In this document: positions 754 to 10,911 of the stretch, piece after piece | Layout: each line of letters opens with the position of its first letter | How positions within the stretch are numbered: the stretch's first letter is position 1 | Assembly (NCBI GenBank): GCA_048938295.1 | Contig: JBHLMI010000025.1 | Location: forward strand, 1 to 32,000 | Length of the DNA stretch: 32,000 bases | Direction of reading: 5' to 3' | Source of the DNA: Promethearchaeota archaeon | GTDB taxonomy: Archaea > Asgardarchaeota > Hermodarchaeia > Hermodarchaeales > Hermodarchaeaceae | Notes under the pieces: model-generated | What the model was told of the DNA's origin: nothing | What the model saw: only the letters and a program-made list of their open reading frames with translations | Databases searched by the model: none | Program-made: the position numbers and the translations under genes

Positions 754-1077
754 TTGCCGATTATCGATATTTGGGAACAGGTCCGTCAGATGCAACAGCC
801 ATGGGCTCCCAAAGAAATCGCCCGAATCAATGATCAGGTCATCCGTCTCGCCTTGTTTGATGGTCAGTTCCCCATGCACAAGCATTCAAACGCCGATGAG
901 CTCTTCTTTGTCTTAAAAGGGAAGATACTTATTCGGCTTAAAGGGCAGCCCGACATTGAATTATCTGAGGGGAAGATGGCGGTCATTCTCAAAGGTATCG
1001 AACATTCTCCAAAAAGCCTTGAGCCCTCATATGTTCTGATGTTCGAACCCTTGGCCTTAAATCCGAGGGGCGACTGA
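754..1077 (+). CDS. Cupin-domain protein
   Basis: Cupin motifs FPMHKHSNADELFFVLKG and VILKGIEHSP; SD GAGGAG upstream. Confidence 0.9.
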   Translation: MPIIDIWEQVRQMQQPWAPKEIARINDQVIRLALFDGQFPMHKHSNADELFFVLKGKILIRLKGQPDIELSEGKMAVILKGIEHSPKSLEPSYVLMFEPLALNPRGD

Positions 1078-1234
1078 GGTGAATTATTCACAGAAGGTTA
1101 TCAACTCTTTGTTTCGAGAGTTTGCGACCTAATTAAAGAAAAGATCCTTGAGTGGTTGGAATCAGTAGAAATCACATTAAAGCTCATGGATTAGAACAAG
1201 CCAACAAACTTTTCCCCCCATCTCGAATTGTTCC

Positions 1235-2732: not shown

Positions 2733-2954
2733 TCACATTTCTTTCCGGCAAATAAAATAGCTGAATCCAATCACTAACATTATGCAACCTCCTACTTGGC
2801 AGACAATGACTAACTGGTCCAGATTCGGAATCGTGTAAAGTGTATTCAGGAGAATAAGTATAATTGGTAAAATAACTGCTATTCCGGCTCCTGAGAAGAT
2901 TATAAGGCTCATGGCCAAGTCCAGTTTGGCGTCAAACCGATATTCGGTTGTCAT
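2733..2954 (-). CDS. Small 2-TM membrane protein
   Basis: 73 aa with two hydrophobic segments; GGTG SD-like motif shortly before the ATG on the minus strand. Confidence 0.6.
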   Translation of the reverse strand: MTTEYRFDAKLDLAMSLIIFSGAGIAVILPIILILLNTLYTIPNLDQLVIVCQVGGCIMLVIGFSYFICRKEM

Positions 2955-3030
2955 AATCTCGCACCAATAGTGGAACTCGCCTTCCTCTTGGTTTTTATGT
3001 TTATGTTAGCGGCTAAGAGCCATAATATTG

Positions 3031-3819
3031 TCAGGGAAAGCTATTCACACCAATAATAAGCGATTGGCAGATGGCATCATACAGCTGGTCTGATAACTCA
3101 ACATACCGGTCCTGGTCCTTTCCCCTAAAAACCAAATCGTTCCACGATCCCATTCCACCAAAGACCCAACCTTGAAAACACCCAGCGATGAGTTGCTGCG
3201 CCTCCTTAGAGAAGCAACCTCGTGGAAGAAGGTCGGAGTCAGCCAGTGGGTCTTCTGCCACAAGGCTCTCTCGAGCTGACTGAAACCATTTTACCCAATT
3301 CACTAAGCGTTGCTCCCGAGCAAACCCACCAATTTTATCTAAGATATCCTGAAGATGCTGAATCGCGTTCTGCACTGATTTATTACGATAAGTTAATGGC
3401 ACTCCACCGCCTGCCGTGATGAAATAATATACCTTCCAGACTCCGCCTTTAGCCATGCGCCAACCAGCTTCCCATAAGTCGCTAGAATCAGCATACAATG
3501 TTTCCATTATCCACTCTCCTCCGCCCCCAACAAAAGCAGCCCCAATTCTATCAGCAATCTCTATTTGTGGAGAATGTCCGTAGAAAAGTCGCACCCGGCC
3601 AACGCCTTTTTTCTGCAACACTTCAAACCATTGATTCGGCGTCTCTGCTAGAATACGGAAATCATCTAGTGCGCCTTCAGGCGTTAACTCACCAAATTCA
3701 ATACTTCGGCAAAACCTAGCCGTAGAATGATCTAAGCTAAAATCAACTGAGTGGTCCTGAAGCACTGCATTAGCAAAAGCTGATAGTGACAGCATCTGGG
3801 CAATATTAATGTTCATCAC
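3031..3819 (-). CDS. Hypothetical protein with C-terminal WVFGGMGSWND motif
   Basis: 262-aa ORF filling the gap between neighbours; globular composition; distinctive GGMGSWND motif. Confidence 0.75.
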   Translation of the reverse strand: MMNINIAQMLSLSAFANAVLQDHSVDFSLDHSTARFCRSIEFGELTPEGALDDFRILAETPNQWFEVLQKKGVGRVRLFYGHSPQIEIADRIGAAFVGGGGEWIMETLYADSSDLWEAGWRMAKGGVWKVYYFITAGGGVPLTYRNKSVQNAIQHLQDILDKIGGFAREQRLVNWVKWFQSARESLVAEDPLADSDLLPRGCFSKEAQQLIAGCFQGWVFGGMGSWNDLVFRGKDQDRYVELSDQLYDAICQSLIIGVNSFP

Positions 3820-3907
3820 TGTGCTCTTCTAAATCGGCTCATAAATTATTATGCGAACAGGCTAGACATCATCAAATACAAATACTTCAACTGCTTACAA
3901 ATCCGCG

Positions 3908-4552
3908 GTGCCCAACGTGACAGAAGACCTAGTCTTTATCCTTGTCTTTTTACTCATGTACGCCATTTTCGGTTTTGTCAGAATTTATTATCGCCGCAAA
4001 GCTGCGAAGGCAAAACGTGAGCATAGCGTTCAGCCACCTAAGACGAAACCCATCCGTTCATGGGCGCATACCGCGATCTCCATTAGCATCCTGGGTATGC
4101 TAATTGCATACCTCCTCTATCTGTTCGTTACACCTTGGTTCCCGTGGTTTCCTCTTCCCATTCCCTCATTGGTGCGGTGGATTGGTGTGATTCCTTGTGT
4201 AGTTGCCATCCCCCTCCTCATCTGGACCCACCGAACGTTGGGTCGCAGTTATTCACCTGAACTAGAAATTCAAGACCAACACCAATTGGTCAATACAGGC
4301 CCCTATGCTCGTATCCGCCATCCGATGTATACCGTCTTCATCCTATTCACTATAGGAACCGTACTCATCACTGCTAACCTCTTTATCACCATTTTTGGGC
4401 TCTTAGTCTGCTTTCTCCTTTATCCCATTTCCAAACAAGAGGAGCAAATGCTCATCACTGAGTTTGGCGACCAATACCGTGGCTACATGAACCGTACTGG
4501 CAGGTTCCTTCCACGGATTCGCCAATCCTCCCAATGGGAGGAGGATAGCTAA
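3908..4552 (+). CDS. Isoprenylcysteine carboxyl methyltransferase (ICMT/Ste14/PEMT)-family membrane methyltransferase
   Basis: Multi-TM protein with LVNTGPYARIRHPMY signature, EE near the C-terminus and the Y...TGRFLP ending. Confidence 0.9.
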   Translation: MPNVTEDLVFILVFLLMYAIFGFVRIYYRRKAAKAKREHSVQPPKTKPIRSWAHTAISISILGMLIAYLLYLFVTPWFPWFPLPIPSLVRWIGVIPCVVAIPLLIWTHRTLGRSYSPELEIQDQHQLVNTGPYARIRHPMYTVFILFTIGTVLITANLFITIFGLLVCFLLYPISKQEEQMLITEFGDQYRGYMNRTGRFLPRIRQSSQWEEDS

Positions 4553-4555
4553 AAG

Positions 4556-5368
4556 ATGGTTAACAAAAAAGACGCCACAACATATCAGGGGATTCAACTC
4601 AATGTCTCCGAAGCTGCTGTCCTCCAAGATTTAGAGGAAATTATTGGAGAGCCCATTCCTCCTAGTGGCATCGCCTTCTACAGAACAGGGTTTGTTCACG
4701 CTAACCAGCATGTCACGGGGCTTAGCCTTCACAACAAGCAACTCACTATTATCCCAGAAGGCATACATGCACTCACCCAACTTGAACGATTATACCTTCG
4801 TGATAACCAACTCACTACTCTTCCAAGTACTATTGGCATGCTCACGCATCTTCAAAACCTTGATGTCTTTAATAATAAAATCACAAAACTCCCTGAAACC
4901 ATCGGTGAACTCTCGCAACTACGGCGCTTCGACCTCTCTAGGAATTTCACTCCTTCGCTTCCCAAAAACATTGGAAACCTTCAATCGCTTGAACGACTCG
5001 GGCTTCTCAATATCCAATTAGAATCCCTACCAGATACCATTGGAAACCTTACAAATTTATGGGATTTCATCGCTTCCATCAATCACCTCATGTCCATCCC
5101 TGATTCTATTGGCAAACTTACCAAGTTAAAACGCCTCGTTCTTCACGAAAACTCACTCACCACGATTCCGGACACGCTCGGACAGTTGGTAAACCTAGAA
5201 CTACTCTCCCTGCATTCAAATCAACTCACAACCCTCCCTTCAACTGTGACTCAATTAAAATCGCTAACAGTTCTTAGACTAGAACACAATCAATTCAAGC
5301 CCATTTCTACAGCGGTTATAAAATGGATCTCAGACTTGAAATCAAAGGGATGCAGGGTCCGAATCTAA
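4556..5368 (+). CDS. Leucine-rich repeat protein
   Basis: About eight consecutive 23-aa repeats of the type LTTLPSTIGMLTHLQNLDVFNNK, with short N- and C-terminal caps. Confidence 0.95.
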   Translation: MVNKKDATTYQGIQLNVSEAAVLQDLEEIIGEPIPPSGIAFYRTGFVHANQHVTGLSLHNKQLTIIPEGIHALTQLERLYLRDNQLTTLPSTIGMLTHLQNLDVFNNKITKLPETIGELSQLRRFDLSRNFTPSLPKNIGNLQSLERLGLLNIQLESLPDTIGNLTNLWDFIASINHLMSIPDSIGKLTKLKRLVLHENSLTTIPDTLGQLVNLELLSLHSNQLTTLPSTVTQLKSLTVLRLEHNQFKPISTAVIKWISDLKSKGCRVRI

Positions 5369-5437
5369 CTCCCTGAAATAGAAGCTAAGGTTATATTACT
5401 ACCACCTGCTCATATGCATATCCTGAGGGATACTTGA

Positions 5438-6073
5438 ATGCCAAAACCAACCATTACCTTTCTCGGTAACTCGGGCTTTCTTCTTGAATACAAAAATTCG
5501 TCTCTGCTTATCGACCCGCAAAATAAAAAGTCTGGTGATCGAAAAGGTGACATCGTCTACTGCACCCACAACCATCCTGATCATGTTGGTGGAGTAAACG
5601 TCTTCATGGAGCAAAACCCGGTTGCCTTTCTAATCGGAAACATCGAGGTTGCAAAGAAATTCTCCAAGTGGACCCATCGCACGATAGTTGTCCACGAAGG
5701 CGAATTCATCCAACAGACCCCCTGGAATCTACGATTCATTCAGGCACCTCCTGGACTAACCAAAAGCAAAACAAATCTCGGAGTCATCATCCGAGCTGAT
5801 GATTTCACCTTCGGTCATGTCGGCAATGCAGTACAATTCAATGGCTTTGCAGGCGCGAAACTAGCTGTTCTTGCGGTTCCCATTTTTGGAGGCTTCACCG
5901 CTTCCTCAAAACGGACCATCGAAGAGTTGAAGAAATTCGACCCGCCCCTACCAATCATTGTACCCATGCATTGGGTCTACAGAAATCCCACAAAATTTTG
6001 TGAGCAGTTAAAACGCGAAATCCCTAAAGTGACCTGTCTTCTCCCGACAAAGAATGAAACCCTGCCTATCTAG
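5438..6073 (+). CDS. Metallo-beta-lactamase-fold protein (UPF0173/UlaG-like), partly degenerate metal site
   Basis: ITFLGNSGF, LLIDP, THNHPDHVGG (HxHxDH) and VPMHW motifs. Confidence 0.85.
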   Translation: MPKPTITFLGNSGFLLEYKNSSLLIDPQNKKSGDRKGDIVYCTHNHPDHVGGVNVFMEQNPVAFLIGNIEVAKKFSKWTHRTIVVHEGEFIQQTPWNLRFIQAPPGLTKSKTNLGVIIRADDFTFGHVGNAVQFNGFAGAKLAVLAVPIFGGFTASSKRTIEELKKFDPPLPIIVPMHWVYRNPTKFCEQLKREIPKVTCLLPTKNETLPI

Positions 6074-6191
6074 CCATTTGATTTCTTGACCACCCTTATC
6101 CCTCGCCTGTGCCGACGCCTCGACGTTTTTTCCTACTCAAATGTTGGTGAAATTCTTTAATATGAAGCCCTATAACAATCAAAAATTCGGT

Positions 6192-7001
6192 TTATAGTAA
6201 TGTGATTATCATTCCCCATTGACCGATACTTAGCTGAAGTTCATCTCTGAATTCTTTGACATACCCTTCTTCAATACGAATAGAGGTGTTCTCTTTCACT
6301 TGCCTAATCTGCTCATTCCAAAGTACGAGTTTGATTGAACCAGTGTCATCTGAAAGTTTTGTATCGACTACCTTGAGTTCTTCACCTGTCTTTTTCGAAA
6401 TCACTTTACGTGGACTCGAGACATGATCCACCTTTCCCTCAACAACAATTCTCTGCTGACCGTTCTGAATATCTGTAATCTGTGACATAGATTGTGGAAA
6501 TTCATCTGACATCCTTTTTTCATAATAGATGCCAGTCCACGTTAGATAATCATGGGTTGTACCTATCTGAACAAATCCAAGACTCTTATAGAAAGGATTC
6601 GTTCTAACATTCCACTCAGGAGTGCCTACCACCCACAGATCTGCGGATACGTATTGCTCCCAGACAAGTTCGAAGGCCTTTGTCCCAATCCCCTTTCTCA
6701 TATAATCAGGGTCGACCCAGATTCGCTCACAGACCTGATACCCTGGACCTCGATTCCCAACAATGAATCCGCCAACAACTTCTGAACCAAACACAATCTT
6801 CCGATACTGCAGCCACTTATTCTGAATTGCCTTAGTATTCCATTCAATCGAGTCATACCCTGGTGGACCACCCGAACCAGGAGCACCAAAATTCAAGTCT
6901 GAATCAAATGACCTCCGACATGTTGCTGTCAGGATCTCCGCATCTTCAACCACTGCCTTCTGCAGCAACACTTCACGAGATTGATTCATACTCAACACCA
7001 A
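6192..7001 (-). CDS. GNAT N-acetyltransferase fused to a C-terminal SSB/RPA-like OB fold
   Basis: Acetyl-CoA motif VDPDYMRKGIG and FYKSLGF in aa 1-164; the segment LSDDTGSIKLVLW...GYVKEFRDELQLSIG (aa ~172-269) matches crenarchaeal SSB-type OB folds. Confidence 0.85.
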   Translation of the reverse strand: MVLSMNQSREVLLQKAVVEDAEILTATCRRSFDSDLNFGAPGSGGPPGYDSIEWNTKAIQNKWLQYRKIVFGSEVVGGFIVGNRGPGYQVCERIWVDPDYMRKGIGTKAFELVWEQYVSADLWVVGTPEWNVRTNPFYKSLGFVQIGTTHDYLTWTGIYYEKRMSDEFPQSMSQITDIQNGQQRIVVEGKVDHVSSPRKVISKKTGEELKVVDTKLSDDTGSIKLVLWNEQIRQVKENTSIRIEEGYVKEFRDELQLSIGQWGMIITLL

Positions 7002-7114
7002 AACCTACAGGATAACACCCTGCTGTCTCTTCTACTCCGAAGATAAACAAGCAAAAGCGGCGCCCAGTATAAATCGTTTACTTGCCTAATCCAATCTACT
7101 CAAAATTAATATAA

Positions 7115-7345
7115 TATAGTCAAAGCCGCGTTCTCGACCCCGCGCCTTCTCGGCGCCTCGACGCCGCCCCTTATGGAAGCACACTCGCCTGGGAGAAAGG
7201 TGTGGCTACAGATTTCCAGCGGGGATATCGAGGTTTTTAAAATTCTAGGCTTGCATTGCGGCTTTTCCTCGTTGAAGCCAAGTATGCTTGTTCCCGGGGT
7301 AAACCTCTGGAGACAGGGCTTTTGTCCTGCCACCTTTCTCGCTGT
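7115..7345 (-). ncRNA. Putative structured non-coding RNA, family unassigned
   Basis: GC-rich island in a 600-nt intergenic gap with several long complementary segments (7122-7129/7258-7265, 7133-7143/7219-7232, 7193-7206/7329-7340, hairpin 7151-7166). TATA-like ATTATAAG at 7373-7366 on the minus strand and an A/T-rich end; G-U wobbles favour the minus strand. Confidence 0.45.
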
Positions 7346-7611
7346 CTTACTGTGCGTTGTGGCGCCTTATAATGGTTACGTTTGTGCTCTGTGTAGAAGG
7401 TTAAAGGGTGCGGAAAAATGATTTAAGTCGGTGCTATTTTCGTCTTAATGGTTTTACATGGATGATTACAGGATTTTAGAGGCTCTGGTTGGCTTTCACG
7501 GGAAATGGCGCTAAACGCGATGCTATTCCTTTAGAATCGAAGCCGAAGTTATAAATGTAAGATATGTAGAACAGGGGGCGCCAAAACACCTACGGGTGGG
7601 TAAAAAACACA

Positions 7612-7968
7612 ATGCAAATCTTAGCAACTGTCTTGATGTTCATCATCAACTGGTTCGTTCTAGCGTTCATCATCATGCTGGCTGCGAAATTAGTAGCTGG
7701 TATGGAAGCAACCTTTGTTAAAGCACTGATTGCATCCCTTATTGGTGGCATTATCTCCGCAATACTCTACTATGCCTTTCTACTAGTTCTCGCACCCTGG
7801 TTCTGGGCTGCAGGAATCGTTATCTTCATTGTCTATCTGCTGGTAATTAGGTACTACTTCGGAACAGGATGCCTAGGGGCGCTGATTATCGCTATCCTAG
7901 CGATTATTATCTATTTGATATTCGCTTGGCTCTTTCAATTCTTCCTGGCTCCACTTCTACCCTTCTAA
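7612..7968 (+). CDS. Uncharacterised 4-TM membrane protein
   Basis: 118 aa, almost wholly hydrophobic; TATA-like TTATAAA near 7549 and a terminator downstream. Confidence 0.8.
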   Translation: MQILATVLMFIINWFVLAFIIMLAAKLVAGMEATFVKALIASLIGGIISAILYYAFLLVLAPWFWAAGIVIFIVYLLVIRYYFGTGCLGALIIAILAIIIYLIFAWLFQFFLAPLLPF

Positions 7969-7970
7969 GA

Positions 7971-8012
7971 AAGAGGAGCCGTTTTCAGGCTCCTTCTTTC
8001 CTTCTTTTTTTT
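7971..8012 (+). terminator. Hairpin plus T-tract terminator
   Basis: AAGAGGAGCC-gttttca-GGCTCCTTCTT followed by a long pyrimidine/T run. Confidence 0.65.
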
Positions 8013-8099
8013 ATACTATGACAGGTTAGGGTTCAGTGTTAATCAGCAAAAAGATTGTACATGAAAGGTGACTGAGTACTGATTCGCGCTTTAATCGGC

Positions 8100-9191
8100 A
8101 TGCTCCGGCAAAACGTTCATGATCACAGCGAATGGCCCTTACAGCTTGAAGAGTTTCTCAGTCTTGTTGAAGCAGCAGGATTTGAAGTGGTTGAAACGGT
8201 GCTGCAAACTCGAATGCGTCTGCATGGAGGGTTTCTTTTTGGACGTGGGAAAGTCGAGGAGATCGCACAGATCGTGGCCATGGAAGACATTGAAACAGTG
8301 GCGGTCTATAATGTGTTGACCTCAATGCAAAAGTTCAACCTACAACGGGCCCTCGGGGTTCCAGTGCTAGACAGGTATGAAATTGTGTTACAGGTGTTTG
8401 GCAAAGCGGCCCGTGATAACGTATCGCAGCTGCAGTTAGAATTGGCTGCTTTACAGAAGAGCTATCCATACATCAAAGTCACTGAGAGTGAGCGGTTGAT
8501 ACGCGAACGGCCTGCTCGATTGGGTGGTAGAGGTCCAGGTGAGTATGCTTATCATGCCCAGCTCCGTCAGCTGCGGAAACGAATCGCCAAGGTGACCGCG
8601 GAGCTAGCGCAGTTTCGGGAGGAGCATCGTCAACGAATGCGTAAACGCCGAGAACTAAACGTTCCAATGGTGTGCTTAGTTGGTTGTTACAATGCTGGCA
8701 AGACCAGTCTGTTCAATGCATTGACAGGCGCTGACAAGGAGGTGAGTGACCGCCCCTTTACTACCTTGACCTCGAAGTGGTCCATGACGGGAAATCCTGA
8801 GATGTTCTTCGTTGACACCATTGGGTTTGCCTTGGATCTAGACCCTGAGCTCATCTCTGCATTTCAGCTAAACCTCGATGATATGCGGGGCGCTGATGTG
8901 CTCCTCTTGGTCGTTGATGTTTCCGATTCCTTCCAATTAATGCAGATGAAAATGCGTAGTGCTTTGGAGATCCTCCGTGAAACTGGAATCGATGAATCAC
9001 GGATTCTCATCGTGTTAAACAAAACGGACATAATGAATTCAGAGCAAACCGCAGAAGTCGCGGACTTTATCGATGCAACATATGGGTTTTCATCCGTATT
9101 GGTTTCAGCCGCAATGAAGTGGAATCTGACCCATCTTATGGATTGTATTCGACAGCTGTATGAGGGTGTAGGGGCCAATCTTGTAAATTAA
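8100..9191 (+). CDS. hflX: GTPase HflX
   Basis: HflX N-domain FGRGKVEEI and LQLELAAL; GGRGPGEY linker; G1 GCYNAGKT, G2 PFTTL, G3 DTIG, G4 NKTD. The start may be at 8079 (see findings). Confidence 0.92.
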   Translation: MLRQNVHDHSEWPLQLEEFLSLVEAAGFEVVETVLQTRMRLHGGFLFGRGKVEEIAQIVAMEDIETVAVYNVLTSMQKFNLQRALGVPVLDRYEIVLQVFGKAARDNVSQLQLELAALQKSYPYIKVTESERLIRERPARLGGRGPGEYAYHAQLRQLRKRIAKVTAELAQFREEHRQRMRKRRELNVPMVCLVGCYNAGKTSLFNALTGADKEVSDRPFTTLTSKWSMTGNPEMFFVDTIGFALDLDPELISAFQLNLDDMRGADVLLLVVDVSDSFQLMQMKMRSALEILRETGIDESRILIVLNKTDIMNSEQTAEVADFIDATYGFSSVLVSAAMKWNLTHLMDCIRQLYEGVGANLVN

Positions 9192-9252
9192 AAGACCGAA
9201 AAGAAATCGAATCGTTGATATAGCCTCATTCAATACCAGAGATGTAGTTTAG

Positions 9253-10911
9253 GTGTCCATGGTGACCGAAGAGCGTGAATACCAGCATTGGATTGATGCA
9301 CTAGTCGAGGAGACCATTAACTATTGGGGGAAGGACGCTGCAAAGATCGATTGCAGTTGTGGATTATCTGTCTCCGGGTTACAGCACGTAGGTCGGTTGC
9401 GAGGAGAAATCACGTTAGCCAATACGGTTATGCAACAACTTCGGCAGAAAGGGTTTGAGTCAAAACATTATATTGTGCGGTACACTAGTGATGAATGGAA
9501 AGGAAAGGCTGCCCAACTCGCACAATTTCCAGATCCGGCCAAGGCTAAGAAGTATGTTGGCCAACGGTTGGTGGATATTCCTGACCCACAATGTAAATTA
9601 AGCAGTTGGGTTGATCGGTACTGGCTCGATTTCGGGCCATATCTGGATTATTTCAGCCGTGGCACCACAGTGGTCAGTACCAATGAAATCTATACTTGGC
9701 CACAAATGCATGAGCTGATTCGTTTCACTATTCAGCATCGTGAGCAAGCCCGAAAGATTATCAACAAATATCGAGTCCGAAATCCATATCCTAAAGACTG
9801 GTTTCCAATCAACGTTATTTGTAACAAGTGCCATCGAATCAATACAACCACGGTAGTTAGTGTTGATCTAGATGCCTACACCGCAAGTTATCGATGCGAT
9901 GAGTGCCATCATGAAGGGACAACCAATATCGAAAATGGAAAGCTATCGTGGCGGCTGGAATGGGCGGCTCTCTGGAAAATCCTCGATGTGGGGTTTGAAC
10001 CCTTCGGGAAAGACCACGCTACTCCTGGAGGGTCACGGGATAGTGCCAAAGAAATCGCTGAAACGTTCTATAAATTCAAGCCACCAGTTCCATATGCCAA
10101 CGAATGGGTAGGCCTGATTGAAAACGGAGTCGACAAAGGAGACATGGGGAGTTCAGATTTTAATGGGTTTACACCGAAAACTTGGATTTCTGTCGCTCCT
10201 GGTGAAGCTCTACGCTACATCTATTTGAAAAATAAATCCATGAAACGTATCACCTTAGGACTTGAGTACATTCCCAATTACATCGGCCAATATGAACGAG
10301 CGGAAAGAGTCTACTACCAAATCGATCTGCCTCGGGTCCCACCTTTGGAAATCGCAGATATTCGACGTAGCTATGAACTCGCTAACCTTAATCCTCTACC
10401 CGAAACGCCACCCCTGCAGATCCCCTATCTTCATGCAGTGCTTCTCACCCAAATCATCCCCACAGAAAATCTTCCTGATGCTGCCCTCGAAAAACTCACG
10501 GACACGGGTATCATTCCAAAAAGCCTTACCGATAATCAACGAATTTCAATTACTACTCGGTTATACCGCGCTCGAACTTGGGTCACTTCCTTTGCGCCTG
10601 ATTCGTATCGTATCATCACTCTTTCCACTCCTCCTGATGGACTTCGCGAAAGCATACCAGATGAGCTCCGACCCGTTTTTCAACAGCTCCATGCCTCCTT
10701 AAATCCTGACGAGTGGACAGAAGAGGCTATCACCGCTACCATGCGAAAACTCACCGGATCTATGTCTAAGGACACACAACGGGCGTTCTTCGAATTCCTC
10801 TATCAAGCCTTTTTTGGAACAGGCAAGGGTCCCCGGATCTCGACCTTTTTTGCCTTCACCGATCCTTTATTCATCCGCGCTCGCGTAAAATATCTTGCTA
10901 GGTTGCCTTAA
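9253..10911 (+). CDS. lysS: Lysine--tRNA ligase, class I
   Basis: SVSGLQHVGR (HIGH-like), two CxxC zinc motifs, GKLSWRLEWAALW, EPFGKDHATPGGS, MGSS (KMSKS-like) and C-terminal GPR motif. Confidence 0.95.
   Translation: MSMVTEEREYQHWIDALVEETINYWGKDAAKIDCSCGLSVSGLQHVGRLRGEITLANTVMQQLRQKGFESKHYIVRYTSDEWKGKAAQLAQFPDPAKAKKYVGQRLVDIPDPQCKLSSWVDRYWLDFGPYLDYFSRGTTVVSTNEIYTWPQMHELIRFTIQHREQARKIINKYRVRNPYPKDWFPINVICNKCHRINTTTVVSVDLDAYTASYRCDECHHEGTTNIENGKLSWRLEWAALWKILDVGFEPFGKDHATPGGSRDSAKEIAETFYKFKPPVPYANEWVGLIENGVDKGDMGSSDFNGFTPKTWISVAPGEALRYIYLKNKSMKRITLGLEYIPNYIGQYERAERVYYQIDLPRVPPLEIADIRRSYELANLNPLPETPPLQIPYLHAVLLTQIIPTENLPDAALEKLTDTGIIPKSLTDNQRISITTRLYRARTWVTSFAPDSYRIITLSTPPDGLRESIPDELRPVFQQLHASLNPDEWTEEAITATMRKLTGSMSKDTQRAFFEFLYQAFFGTGKGPRISTFFAFTDPLFIRARVKYLARLP

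What the first reader, a model, noticed from the sequence alone, without database searches (positions are those of the whole stretch)
7115..7345. Unassigned structured RNA-like element with crossing helices
Seen on the minus strand: TATA-like ATTATAAG (7373-7366) places a start at about 7342, right at GAGAAAGGUGGC, which pairs with GCCA-CA-CCUUUCUC (7206-7193). AAAGCCGC (7265-7258) pairs with GCGGCUUU (7129-7122), crossing the first helix as a pseudoknot. CUCGA-UAU-CCCCGC (7232-7219) can pair with either GCGGGGUCGAG (7143-7133) or GGGGCGGCGUCGAGG, suggesting alternative conformers. There is also a hairpin CGGCGU-CGAG-GCGCCG. GAGGAAAAGCCGC and AGAACGCGGCUUU resemble the RNase P/MRP P4 strands (GAGGAAAGUCC / AGAAnnnGGCUUA) in a P2-P3-P4...P2-P19-P4 order. 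However, the bulged U, P1 and the S-domain are missing, so this is at most a diverged P-like RNA or a new family. A plus-strand RNA of about 100 nt (7133-7233, terminal stem then TTTTT) is an alternative reading.
Basis: partly seen in the sequence, partly recalled or inferred. Interest (0 to 1): 0.62.

Follow-up and report, generated by a model that had tools for sequence, protein, structure and literature searches.

The report
Orphan structured RNA gene in Hermodarchaeia
This is a real, separately transcribed and extremely conserved non-coding RNA gene of about 240 nt, found only in the Hermod lineage of Asgard archaea; it matches no known RNA family, is not an RNase P relative, and in one genus its 3' end is a hotspot where accessory genes get inserted.

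Summary
The element is an independent minus-strand RNA gene (about 7343 to 7100) with a conserved archaeal BRE/TATA promoter. It occurs in 18 of 19 species genomes of the class, beside hflX in every locus that reaches that far. MAG titles confirm the class as Candidatus Hermodarchaeota.

The core is nearly invariant, while flanking protein genes are only 65-72% identical. Two 3' hairpins covary, and four conserved G-U pairs fix the strand.

It is not RNase P-like:
- The genome has canonical RNase P RNA and SRP RNA elsewhere.
- No Rfam family matches, even permissively.
- The P4-like pairing is absent in the second genus and has no bulged U or P1.

A new finding concerns genus g1. DNA segments of 1.7-14 kb, each carrying its own copy of the RNA's 3' part, are inserted into the gene and displace the old 3' part. 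This resembles islands at tRNA or tmRNA genes, but no integrase was found.

The function is unknown. My best guess is a protein-bound housekeeping RNA.

First readers of this scan had already flagged look-alike elements in three other genomes.

The parts
7366..7384 (-). Conserved archaeal BRE/TATA promoter of the RNA gene (TATA 7372-7367)
   Evidence: Nearly identical in all g1 homologues while the surrounding spacer diverges (alignment). It places the start at about 7343-7341. The start site is inferred, not measured.
7100..7343 (-). Predicted transcript, about 240 nt, ending at a U-run (7105-7102)
   Evidence: The conserved block starts at 7343. Genus g2 copies end at T5 runs. 1- and 2-nt indels among homologues break the frame of the ORFs listed on both strands.
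7331..7340 (-). Helix A, 5' strand; pairs with 7202-7193 (10 perfect bp)
   Evidence: Kept in g2 with one A-U to G-U change and one mismatch in one genome; no two-sided change.
7193..7202 (-). Helix A, 3' strand
7302..7329 (-). Variable 5' hairpin region (B)
   Evidence: The stem is kept while the loop varies in sequence and length. In three g1 genomes and in g2 it is replaced by unrelated hairpins. Read by eye; not formally counted.
7248..7297 (-). Invariant core I, with two small candidate hairpins (7289-7280 and 7279-7260)
   Evidence: 37 columns are identical in all 17 sequences across two genera. These helices are untestable because nothing varies.
7234..7247 (-). A/U-rich variable linker with an invariant U-run
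   Evidence: This is the only variable stretch inside the core and is probably single-stranded. Its likeness to an Sm-type site is speculation.
7219..7233 (-). Helix E, 5' strand; pairs with the tail at 7143-7132 and crosses helix A (pseudoknot)
   Evidence: The duplex is better than shuffled tails in every g1 copy (p = 0.004-0.048). In g2 this holds only in L016 (p = 0.002), in a different register; two other g2 copies are weak. Changes are one-sided only.
7205..7220 (-). Hairpin h3
   Evidence: The stem is invariant. The loop gains 1 nt in two g2 copies (L016, L018) and 5 nt in a third (L019).
7169..7192 (-). Hairpin h4, with two conserved G-U pairs
   Evidence: 3 of 5 inner pairs show two-sided changes once the partial copies are included. 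G-U changes to A-U in two of the four g2 genomes.
7151..7166 (-). Hairpin h5, the best-supported helix
   Evidence: 5 of 6 pairs have two-sided changes; the closing pair is seen as C-G, G-C, A-U, G-U and U-G. One allele (L010) has an unrelated hairpin here; L013 carries a shortened, covarying variant.
7132..7143 (-). Helix E, 3' strand
7258..7265 (-). P4-like helix, 5' strand; pairs with 7129-7122 (8 bp) and excludes the small hairpin at 7279-7260
   Evidence: Better than shuffles in most g1 copies (p < 0.002 to 0.086), including the rearranged L010 allele (p = 0.004). Not better in g2 (p = 0.26-0.94) or in the G012 allele (p = 0.63).
7122..7129 (-). P4-like helix, 3' strand (genus g1 only)
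6990..7199 (-). Segment that is duplicated in relatives: the RNA's 3' part plus the promoter and leader of the next gene (att-like module)
   Evidence: Partial copies begin near 7199-7190. They run through the RNA's end into sequence homologous to 7100-6990, and lie 1.7-14 kb downstream of the intact gene in G003, G006, G010, G012 and G013. This window has no duplicate.
7068..7079 (-). Separate BRE/TATA promoter of the downstream GNAT-OB gene
   Evidence: Read from sequence. Conserved after the displaced partial copies. It shows the RNA is not simply that gene's leader.
8100..9191 (+). hflX-type GTPase gene, divergent from the RNA; the only neighbour conserved across the class
   Evidence: Pfam. 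Adjacent in every homologous locus that reaches that far.
6192..7001 (-). GNAT-OB fusion gene, downstream neighbour in genus g1 only
   Evidence: Pfam. In g2 the downstream neighbour is a gelsolin-repeat protein.

Best explanation
The element is the gene for an orphan structured non-coding RNA of about 225-245 nt, specific to the Hermod lineage of Asgard archaea. It is transcribed on the minus strand from its own strong BRE/TATA promoter and ends at a U-run.

Shown:
- It is conserved far more strongly than the neighbouring protein genes.
- It is single-copy here and does not encode a protein.
- Its two 3' hairpins are under selection for pairing.
- It matches no Rfam family.

Inferred architecture:
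- A 10-bp helix joins the 5' end to an internal segment. It encloses a variable hairpin, an invariant core of about 50 nt, an A/U-rich linker and a small hairpin.
- Two covarying hairpins follow.
- A tail folds back onto the core, crossing the first helix as a pseudoknot.
- In genus g1 the tail is longer and makes a second, P4-like contact. Genus g2 lacks that contact.

Inferred function: a stable, protein-bound housekeeping RNA acting in trans. The invariant 5' two-thirds would be the working surface, and the 3' third a stabilising module. I give this about 35-40%.

The 3' third also serves, in genus g1, as the chromosomal target for Campbell-type insertion of accessory DNA. Each insert brings a replacement copy of that 3' part, so the gene stays intact. 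This is as seen at tRNA and tmRNA genes.
For: Promoter and conserved block.

Distribution: 18 of 19 class genomes by BLAST. No credible match in 132 other genomes of the phylum by covariance model. Taxonomy comes from MAG titles.

Conservation: 37 invariant columns across two genera, against 65-72% identity for hflX DNA.

Not coding: indels of 1-2 nt among homologues, and no Pfam hit for either overlapping ORF.

Covariation: h5 has two-sided changes in 5 of 6 pairs and h4 in 3 of 5. The h5 closing pair is seen as C-G, A-U, G-C and G-U in the unfitted alignment.

Strand: conserved G-U pairs in h3, h4 and h5, plus the promoter.

Long-range helices: 10-bp helix A (1.7% of shuffles). Tail duplexes beat shuffles in every g1 copy for E and in most for the P4-like helix, and both survive in the rearranged L010 allele.

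Not a known family. Canonical RNase P RNA and SRP RNA are elsewhere in the genome.

Insertion target: partial 3' copies continue into the GNAT-OB promoter. Inserts carry methyltransferases, a kinase-like protein, a luciferase-like oxidoreductase and a Rad50-Mre11-HerA-NurA cluster. Contigs break inside the gene with overlaps of 55, 77 and 127 nt, typical k-mer lengths.
Against: There are no expression data of any kind. The start and end of the transcript are predictions.

The nested MFE is no better than shuffles.

Most helices, including helix A, E and everything in the invariant core, have no two-sided changes, because the 17 sequences come from only two genera.

The covariation count that looks strongest comes from an alignment fitted to the model. 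Its first three helices are inflated by non-homologous sequence and must be ignored.

The best-supported hairpins lie inside the duplicated att-like module. Part of their conservation could therefore reflect a DNA recombination site and not RNA function.

No integrase or other recombinase was found next to any insert.

Nothing found here points to a specific molecular function. There is no antisense target longer than 15 nt in the genome, and no protein neighbour other than hflX is conserved.
Confidence: 0.7

Rival explanations
1. It is a diverged RNase P/MRP-like RNA. On this view the 10-bp helix is P2, the 5' hairpins are P3, 7270-7258 with 7134-7122 are the P4 strands, and the 3' hairpins are P19.
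For: In this copy both strands resemble the P4 consensus words and occur in the right order. The 8-bp helix is real and beats shuffles in most g1 copies. The size is close to the minimal type-T RNase P RNA (from general knowledge; not tested).
Against: - A complete canonical RNase P RNA lies on contig 47 (177 bits). Its P4 strands differ from the element's.
- The type-T model gives no hit. No RNase P or MRP model reaches E = 10 on this copy or on five divergent copies.
- The 3' strand is absent in all four g2 genomes and weak in the G012 allele. The bases next to it vary freely within g1.
- There is no bulged U, no P1 and no S-domain.
- The 5' strand can instead form a local hairpin.
Confidence: 0.03
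2. It is a cis-acting platform and not a trans-acting RNA. A strong outward promoter plus a structured recombination site would sit at the head of an array of swappable gene cassettes, working like the Pc-attI end of an integron. The 'RNA' would be the leader of whatever cassette comes next.
For: The first gene after the element is co-oriented with it in the window, G002, G005, G006, G010 and G012. The 3' module recurs at cassette boundaries. The best covariation lies in that module.
Against: - U-runs follow the element, and the next gene has its own BRE/TATA.
- In g2 the element is just as conserved, yet there are no inserts and the neighbour is fixed.
- The most conserved part is the 5' core, which is never duplicated.
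- No integrase gene lies nearby.
- The repeats are direct copies of a gene end, not attC-like imperfect palindromes.
Confidence: 0.1
3. There is no RNA function at all. The block is conserved as DNA, as an attachment site or the relic end of a mobile element, and the hairpins are recombinase-binding inverted repeats.
For: The 3' part is dispersed in several g1 genomes in two sequence types. The h5 hairpin is a near-palindrome.
Against: - A DNA site does not explain a conserved BRE/TATA at the right distance.
- Nor does it explain an invariant, never-duplicated 5' core of about 150 nt.
- The G-U pairs are kept as G-U on one strand only.
- The element has a fixed chromosomal position next to hflX in two genera, one of which has no inserts.
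Confidence: 0.05
4. The functional unit is a plus-strand RNA of about 100 nt (7133-7233), closed by a long stem and followed by a T-run, or a terminator for a plus-strand gene.
For: On the plus strand, 7133-7143 pairs with 7219-7232 and is followed by five T.
Against: - There is no conserved plus-strand promoter.
- The nearest upstream plus-strand gene ends at 6073.
- Four conserved G-U pairs become A-C on the plus strand.
- Conservation extends 110 nt beyond this unit on the promoter side.
- Plus-strand fold z = 0.05.
Confidence: 0.02

Closest known systems
RNase P RNA (archaeal type A/M; minimal type T of Thermoproteaceae) and eukaryotic RNase MRP RNA
   Same: Own promoter; a few hundred nt long; a long-range pseudoknot. 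In this copy the two strands read like the P4 consensus words.
   Different: No covariance-model match. No P1, no bulged U, no S-domain. The P4-like 3' strand is missing in one genus. A canonical RNase P RNA is present elsewhere in the genome.
tRNA and tmRNA (ssrA) genes as attachment sites of integrative elements (archaeal SSV- and pNOB8-type integrases; bacterial ssrA islands)
   Same: Inserted DNA carries a replacement copy of the gene's 3' part, so an intact gene is regenerated. The displaced old 3' part remains as a decaying direct repeat at the far end. Repeated insertion gives tandem remnants.
   Different: The target is not tRNA-like (ARAGORN finds nothing). No integrase was found in or beside any insert. 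Most inserts hold only one to three accessory genes.
Large or mid-sized orphan structured ncRNAs known only from comparative genomics (for example OLE, GOLLD, ROOL and raiA in bacteria)
   Same: Restricted to one lineage, strongly conserved, structured, with no function assignable from sequence.
   Different: No sequence or model similarity to any of them. It is archaeal (Asgard), and its conservation is mainly at the sequence level.
Integron attI/attC cassette platform (reported in Archaea by Ghaly et al. 2022; cited from memory, not read here)
   Same: A variable run of mostly co-oriented small cassettes beside a strong promoter, with a structured repeat at the cassette joints.
   Different: No IntI-type integrase. 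The repeats are direct copies of an RNA gene's end plus the next promoter. The cassettes have their own promoters. The platform sequence is fully conserved in a genus that has no cassettes.

Membership tests
RNase P RNA / RNase MRP RNA | Significant score against a family covariance model (RF00373, RF02357, RF00009-11, RF00030) | tested here: not met
   No hit at gathering score. None at E up to 10 on this copy or on five divergent copies. The type-T model finds nothing in the genome, though that model also rang in none of the control genomes.
RNase P RNA / RNase MRP RNA | P4 pseudoknot conserved in all members, with a bulged U | tested here: not met
   The 8-bp helix has no bulge. Its 3' strand is absent in g2 (p = 0.26-0.94) and weak in the G012 allele.
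RNase P RNA / RNase MRP RNA | P1 helix pairing the 5' and 3' ends; specificity domain or its remnants (CR-II/III) | tested here: not met
   The 5' end pairs with an internal segment, 7202-7193, not with the 3' end. No such elements appear in the alignment.
RNase P RNA / RNase MRP RNA | It is the genome's RNase P RNA (no other copy) | tested here: not met
   A complete canonical RNaseP_arch lies at contig 47:7929-8306, 177 bits.
RNase P RNA / RNase MRP RNA | Catalytic activity, or association with Pop5/Rpp30/Rpp21/Rpp29 | not testable with these tools
   Needs biochemistry.
Archaeal SRP RNA | Match to RF01857; sole copy in the genome | tested here: not met
   No match here. A canonical copy lies on contig 35, 123 bits.
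tRNA / tmRNA | Cloverleaf or tRNA-like domain | tested here: not met
   ARAGORN finds no gene in the window.
RNA gene used as attachment site by integrative elements | Direct repeat of the gene's 3' part flanking inserted DNA, with an intact gene at one end | tested here: met
   Seen in G003, G006, G010, G012 and G013. The partial copies continue into the original downstream promoter.
RNA gene used as attachment site by integrative elements | Integrase encoded at one end of the insert | tested here: not met
   No recombinase domain in any flanking ORF by Pfam or PHROGs. Several ORFs remain unknown.
RNA gene used as attachment site by integrative elements | Excised circular form, or an empty site in sister strains | tested here: inconclusive
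   An empty site exists (this window and G001). Contig breaks with k-mer-length overlaps suggest strain polymorphism. Circular forms need read-level data.
Integron | IntI-type tyrosine recombinase next to attI; attC imperfect palindromes | tested here: not met
   The neighbours are hflX, a 118-aa unknown and GNAT-OB. The repeats are direct copies of the RNA's end.
C/D-box or H/ACA sRNA | Box motifs and a family model match | tested here: not met
   No such hit on the element. The weak sR5 hit (16 bits, cut-off 40) lies outside it, at 7618-7676.

The most novel reading that the evidence does not exclude
The RNA is the core of a previously unseen Asgard ribonucleoprotein. One possibility is a ribosome-linked particle, given the class-wide pairing with hflX. 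Another is an Sm-type particle, given the invariant U-run in a single-stranded linker between structured domains. In addition, or instead, its 3' module may be the anchor of a new cassette-capture system in Hermod archaea that works without any recognisable integrase.
Probability: 0.12. Interest if true: 0.8.

Novelty: categorically new. Interest (0 to 1): 0.55.

Why it matters
Non-coding RNAs of Asgard archaea are almost unexplored. A full-text search found no paper describing anything like this one.

An RNA conserved as tightly as this is likely to matter to the cell: it is near-identical across two genera, while its neighbouring genes have drifted to about 65% identity. Lineage-specific RNPs in the closest relatives of eukaryotes are of evolutionary interest.

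Its 3' end also marks a boundary between core and accessory genome. There, small gene sets come and go without a visible recombinase. To my knowledge this would be the first non-tRNA RNA gene seen as an insertion target in archaea, and a handle on how Asgard genomes acquire genes.

The claim is limited. The family is new, but its function is unknown, and the sample covers only one family of MAGs.

Tried and rejected
- Rfam at gathering and permissive thresholds, on the window and on five divergent homologues: only noise.
- RNase P type-T model on the genome: nothing.
- Covariance model of the 152-nt core against 132 other genomes of the phylum: only marginal hits with E above 0.1.
- Two-block motif search in 400 phylum genomes: only g2 plus two random hits. 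My pattern wrongly excluded g1, which has one extra A.
- Antisense targets in the genome: nothing longer than 15 nt, at chance level.
- RNAalifold: few helices and no covariation, because the core does not vary.
- Protein-coding readings of the two overlapping ORFs: no family, and the frames are broken by indels.
- GNAT-OB as a partner protein: rejected, since it is not the neighbour in g2.
- The recurrent protein of about 265 aa after the RNA as a recombinase: rejected, since it carries a kinase-type motif (motif read by eye).
- The marginal hit in another family (L020): a 27-nt chance match.

Full report
**What is in the sequence**

These are the TATA-like octamer at 7373-7366, the purine-rich 5' strand from 7340, its partner at 7206-7193, the 8-nt pair 7265-7258 / 7129-7122, the bipartite pair 7232-7219 / 7143-7133, and the hairpin at 7166-7151.

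The first helix is best drawn as ten perfect pairs, 7340-7331 with 7202-7193. In 300 dinucleotide shuffles, 1.7% had a perfect stem that long, and 5% had two stems of 8 bp or more.

The nested minimum-free-energy fold is no better than shuffles on either strand (z = 0.36 and 0.05). Energy alone would not have picked this element out.

**It is a gene**

The element is conserved in 13 of 14 genomes of the window's genus (g1) and in all 4 of a second genus (g2). That is 18 of the 19 species genomes of the class, counting the window's own. It lies next to an hflX-type GTPase gene in every homologous locus that reaches that far.

Titles of the closest hflX loci name the organisms as Candidatus Hermodarchaeota and Ca. 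Hermodarchaeum yapensis. This confirms independently what earlier notes of the scan had said.

The alignment shows a near-identical BRE/TATA block at 7384-7366, then a diverging 20-nt spacer, then a conserved block starting at 7343. This is the spacing expected between an archaeal TATA box and a transcription start (general knowledge). The block ends before U-runs, and the downstream gene has a BRE/TATA of its own at 7079-7068.

Thirty-seven columns are identical in all 17 sequences. The hflX DNA next door is 65-72% identical between the same genomes.

Indels of one and two bases among the homologues break the frames of the 75-aa and 82-aa ORFs that overlap the element. Neither ORF matches a protein family.

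**Strand and structure**

Conserved G-U pairs in three hairpins would be A-C mismatches on the other strand.

On the plain alignment, the hand-drawn structure including both crossing helices is 93% paired, against 41-56% when the partners are slid. But only one pair has changes on both sides, because almost nothing varies.

Adding the partial copies described below gives real variation in the 3' third. Five of six pairs of the terminal hairpin (7166-7151) and three of five inner pairs of the hairpin before it (7192-7169) change on both sides and stay paired. That alignment is fitted to the model. Its first three helices are inflated by sequence that is not homologous, so I discount them.

By eye, the 5' hairpin region (7329-7302) keeps a stem while its loop changes. 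In three g1 genomes and in g2 it is replaced by unrelated hairpins.

The long-range contacts of the tail were tested copy by copy against shuffled tails:
- The contact with 7233-7219 beats shuffles in all g1 copies (p = 0.004-0.048). In g2 it does so only in L016 (p = 0.002), and in a different register.
- The P4-like contact beats shuffles in most g1 copies (p < 0.002 to 0.086), including a heavily rearranged allele (L010, p = 0.004).
- The P4-like contact does not beat shuffles in g2 (p = 0.26-0.94) or in the G012 allele.
- Related copies are not independent, so these figures are supportive, not proof.

**What it is not**

The genome has a complete canonical archaeal RNase P RNA on contig 47 (177 bits). 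Its P4 strands differ from the element's. It also has a canonical SRP RNA on contig 35.

No Rfam family reaches its threshold in the window. A permissive scan of this copy and of five divergent copies returns only unrelated noise. ARAGORN finds no tRNA or tmRNA.

The RNase P/MRP reading is therefore not supported. The P4-like helix lacks the bulged U and is not conserved in the class. There is no P1 and no specificity domain.

The resemblance of the two words in this particular copy to the P4 consensus is real. However, the bases flanking the 3' word vary freely, even within the genus.

**An unexpected second property**

The covariance model found extra weak hits in g1 genomes. These are copies of the 3' part only, starting near 7199-7190. 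When aligned, they run through the RNA's end and on into sequence homologous to the window's 7100-6990, which is the promoter and leader of the GNAT-OB gene.

So the window shows the uninterrupted order: hflX, RNA, GNAT-OB. In G003, G006, G010, G012 and G013, segments of 1.7 to 14 kb sit inside the RNA gene. Each brings a fresh 3' part that keeps the gene whole, and pushes the old 3' part to the far side, where it decays.

This is the pattern left by Campbell-type integration at tRNA and tmRNA genes (general knowledge).

The inserts carry the following:
- methyltransferases
- a kinase-like protein
- a luciferase-like oxidoreductase
- a DUF4332 protein
- a Rad50-Mre11-HerA-NurA cluster

None of the ORFs next to the joints has a recombinase domain in Pfam or PHROGs. 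The mechanism is therefore inferred from the scars, not shown.

A second sequence type of the 3' module exists. It serves as the actual 3' end of the RNA in G013.

Many MAG contigs end inside the gene with overlaps of 55, 77 or 127 nt. This is what a de Bruijn assembler does at a branch point, and it suggests the site is polymorphic among co-occurring strains.

In g2 the RNA ends sooner and has no P4-like tail. It is always followed by a gelsolin-repeat gene, and no inserts were seen.

**Function**

Nothing here points to a specific activity. There is no antisense complementarity above chance anywhere in the genome. No conserved protein neighbour exists apart from the divergently transcribed hflX. 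No paper in the library describes such an RNA.

The features are a strong dedicated promoter, a single copy, sequence-level invariance of the 5' two-thirds, and use of its end as an attachment site. This combination is the one shared by housekeeping RNP RNAs.

I therefore commit to a stable, protein-bound, trans-acting RNA as the most likely reading (about 35-40%). An integron-like cis platform is the main rival (about 10%).

**Limits**
- All sequences come from one family of metagenome-assembled genomes.
- The metagenome scan was wasted on a word that was too short.
- No expression data were available.

**Earlier notes of this scan**

First readers had flagged look-alike elements in three other genomes:
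- One saw the same locus after hflX at a core/accessory boundary, with the same P4-like remark.
- One saw the 3' module as a dispersed element.
- One read it as a leader of hflX-lysS, which the promoter and the G-U evidence here contradict.

Noticed in passing
window 7618-7676 (-): Weak C/D-box sRNA-like match (Rfam sR5, 16 bits against a cut-off of 40, E = 0.41). It has two UGAUGA words but no clear D box, and it lies antisense to the start of the 118-aa ORF. Probably chance.
   Followed up: no
window 7612-7968 (+): A 118-aa ORF with no Pfam family lies between the RNA and hflX. Homologous DNA is seen in only some relatives (for example G001, G003, G009, G013). The other loci, including all of g2, have only 170-450 nt between the RNA and hflX.
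   Followed up: partly
G000 contig 48:36-1167 and contig 20:44859-46418: The genome's rRNA gene fragments are much longer than the model stretches they match: SSU positions 830-1343 span 1132 nt, and LSU positions 2144-2973 span 1560 nt. This suggests large introns or expansion segments.
   Followed up: no
L206 (G010:C43) 2900-10800: A Rad50-like ATPase, an Mre11-like phosphoesterase, HerA and NurA genes form one cluster inside a 14-kb insert. The insert is bounded by copies of the RNA's 3' module. It is either a mobile copy of the archaeal end-resection operon or a defence island.
   Followed up: partly
L080 2520-3320; L005 562-1365; L042 629-1420: An unknown protein of about 265 aa (81-86% identical among three genomes), with a kinase-type motif like aminoglycoside/choline-kinase phosphotransferases and no Pfam hit. 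It is the first cassette gene after the RNA in L080 and L005 (G006, G002) and, by position, in L042 (G005).
   Followed up: partly
L016 758-1375; L017 448-1056; L018 301-909; L019 1791-2399: In all four g2 genomes the gene downstream of the RNA encodes a 202-205-aa two-repeat gelsolin-domain protein, an Asgard eukaryote-like protein.
   Followed up: no
L010 (G003:C26) about 1095-1125 (-): One allele has a 30-nt insertion inside the 5' strand of helix E. The insertion contains a 12-nt inverted copy of part of the terminal hairpin. The same allele has a different terminal hairpin and a longer tail. Possibly a recombination scar.
   Followed up: partly
L013 (G013:C407) about 960-990 (-): Another allele has a 31-nt insertion with its own small hairpin, exactly at the point where the duplicated 3' module begins. 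This is the presumed crossover region.
   Followed up: no
window 6192-7001 (-): GNAT acetyltransferase fused to an SSB-like OB fold. It is conserved as the far-side flank of the insertion site in g1, but it is not linked to the RNA in g2.
   Followed up: partly
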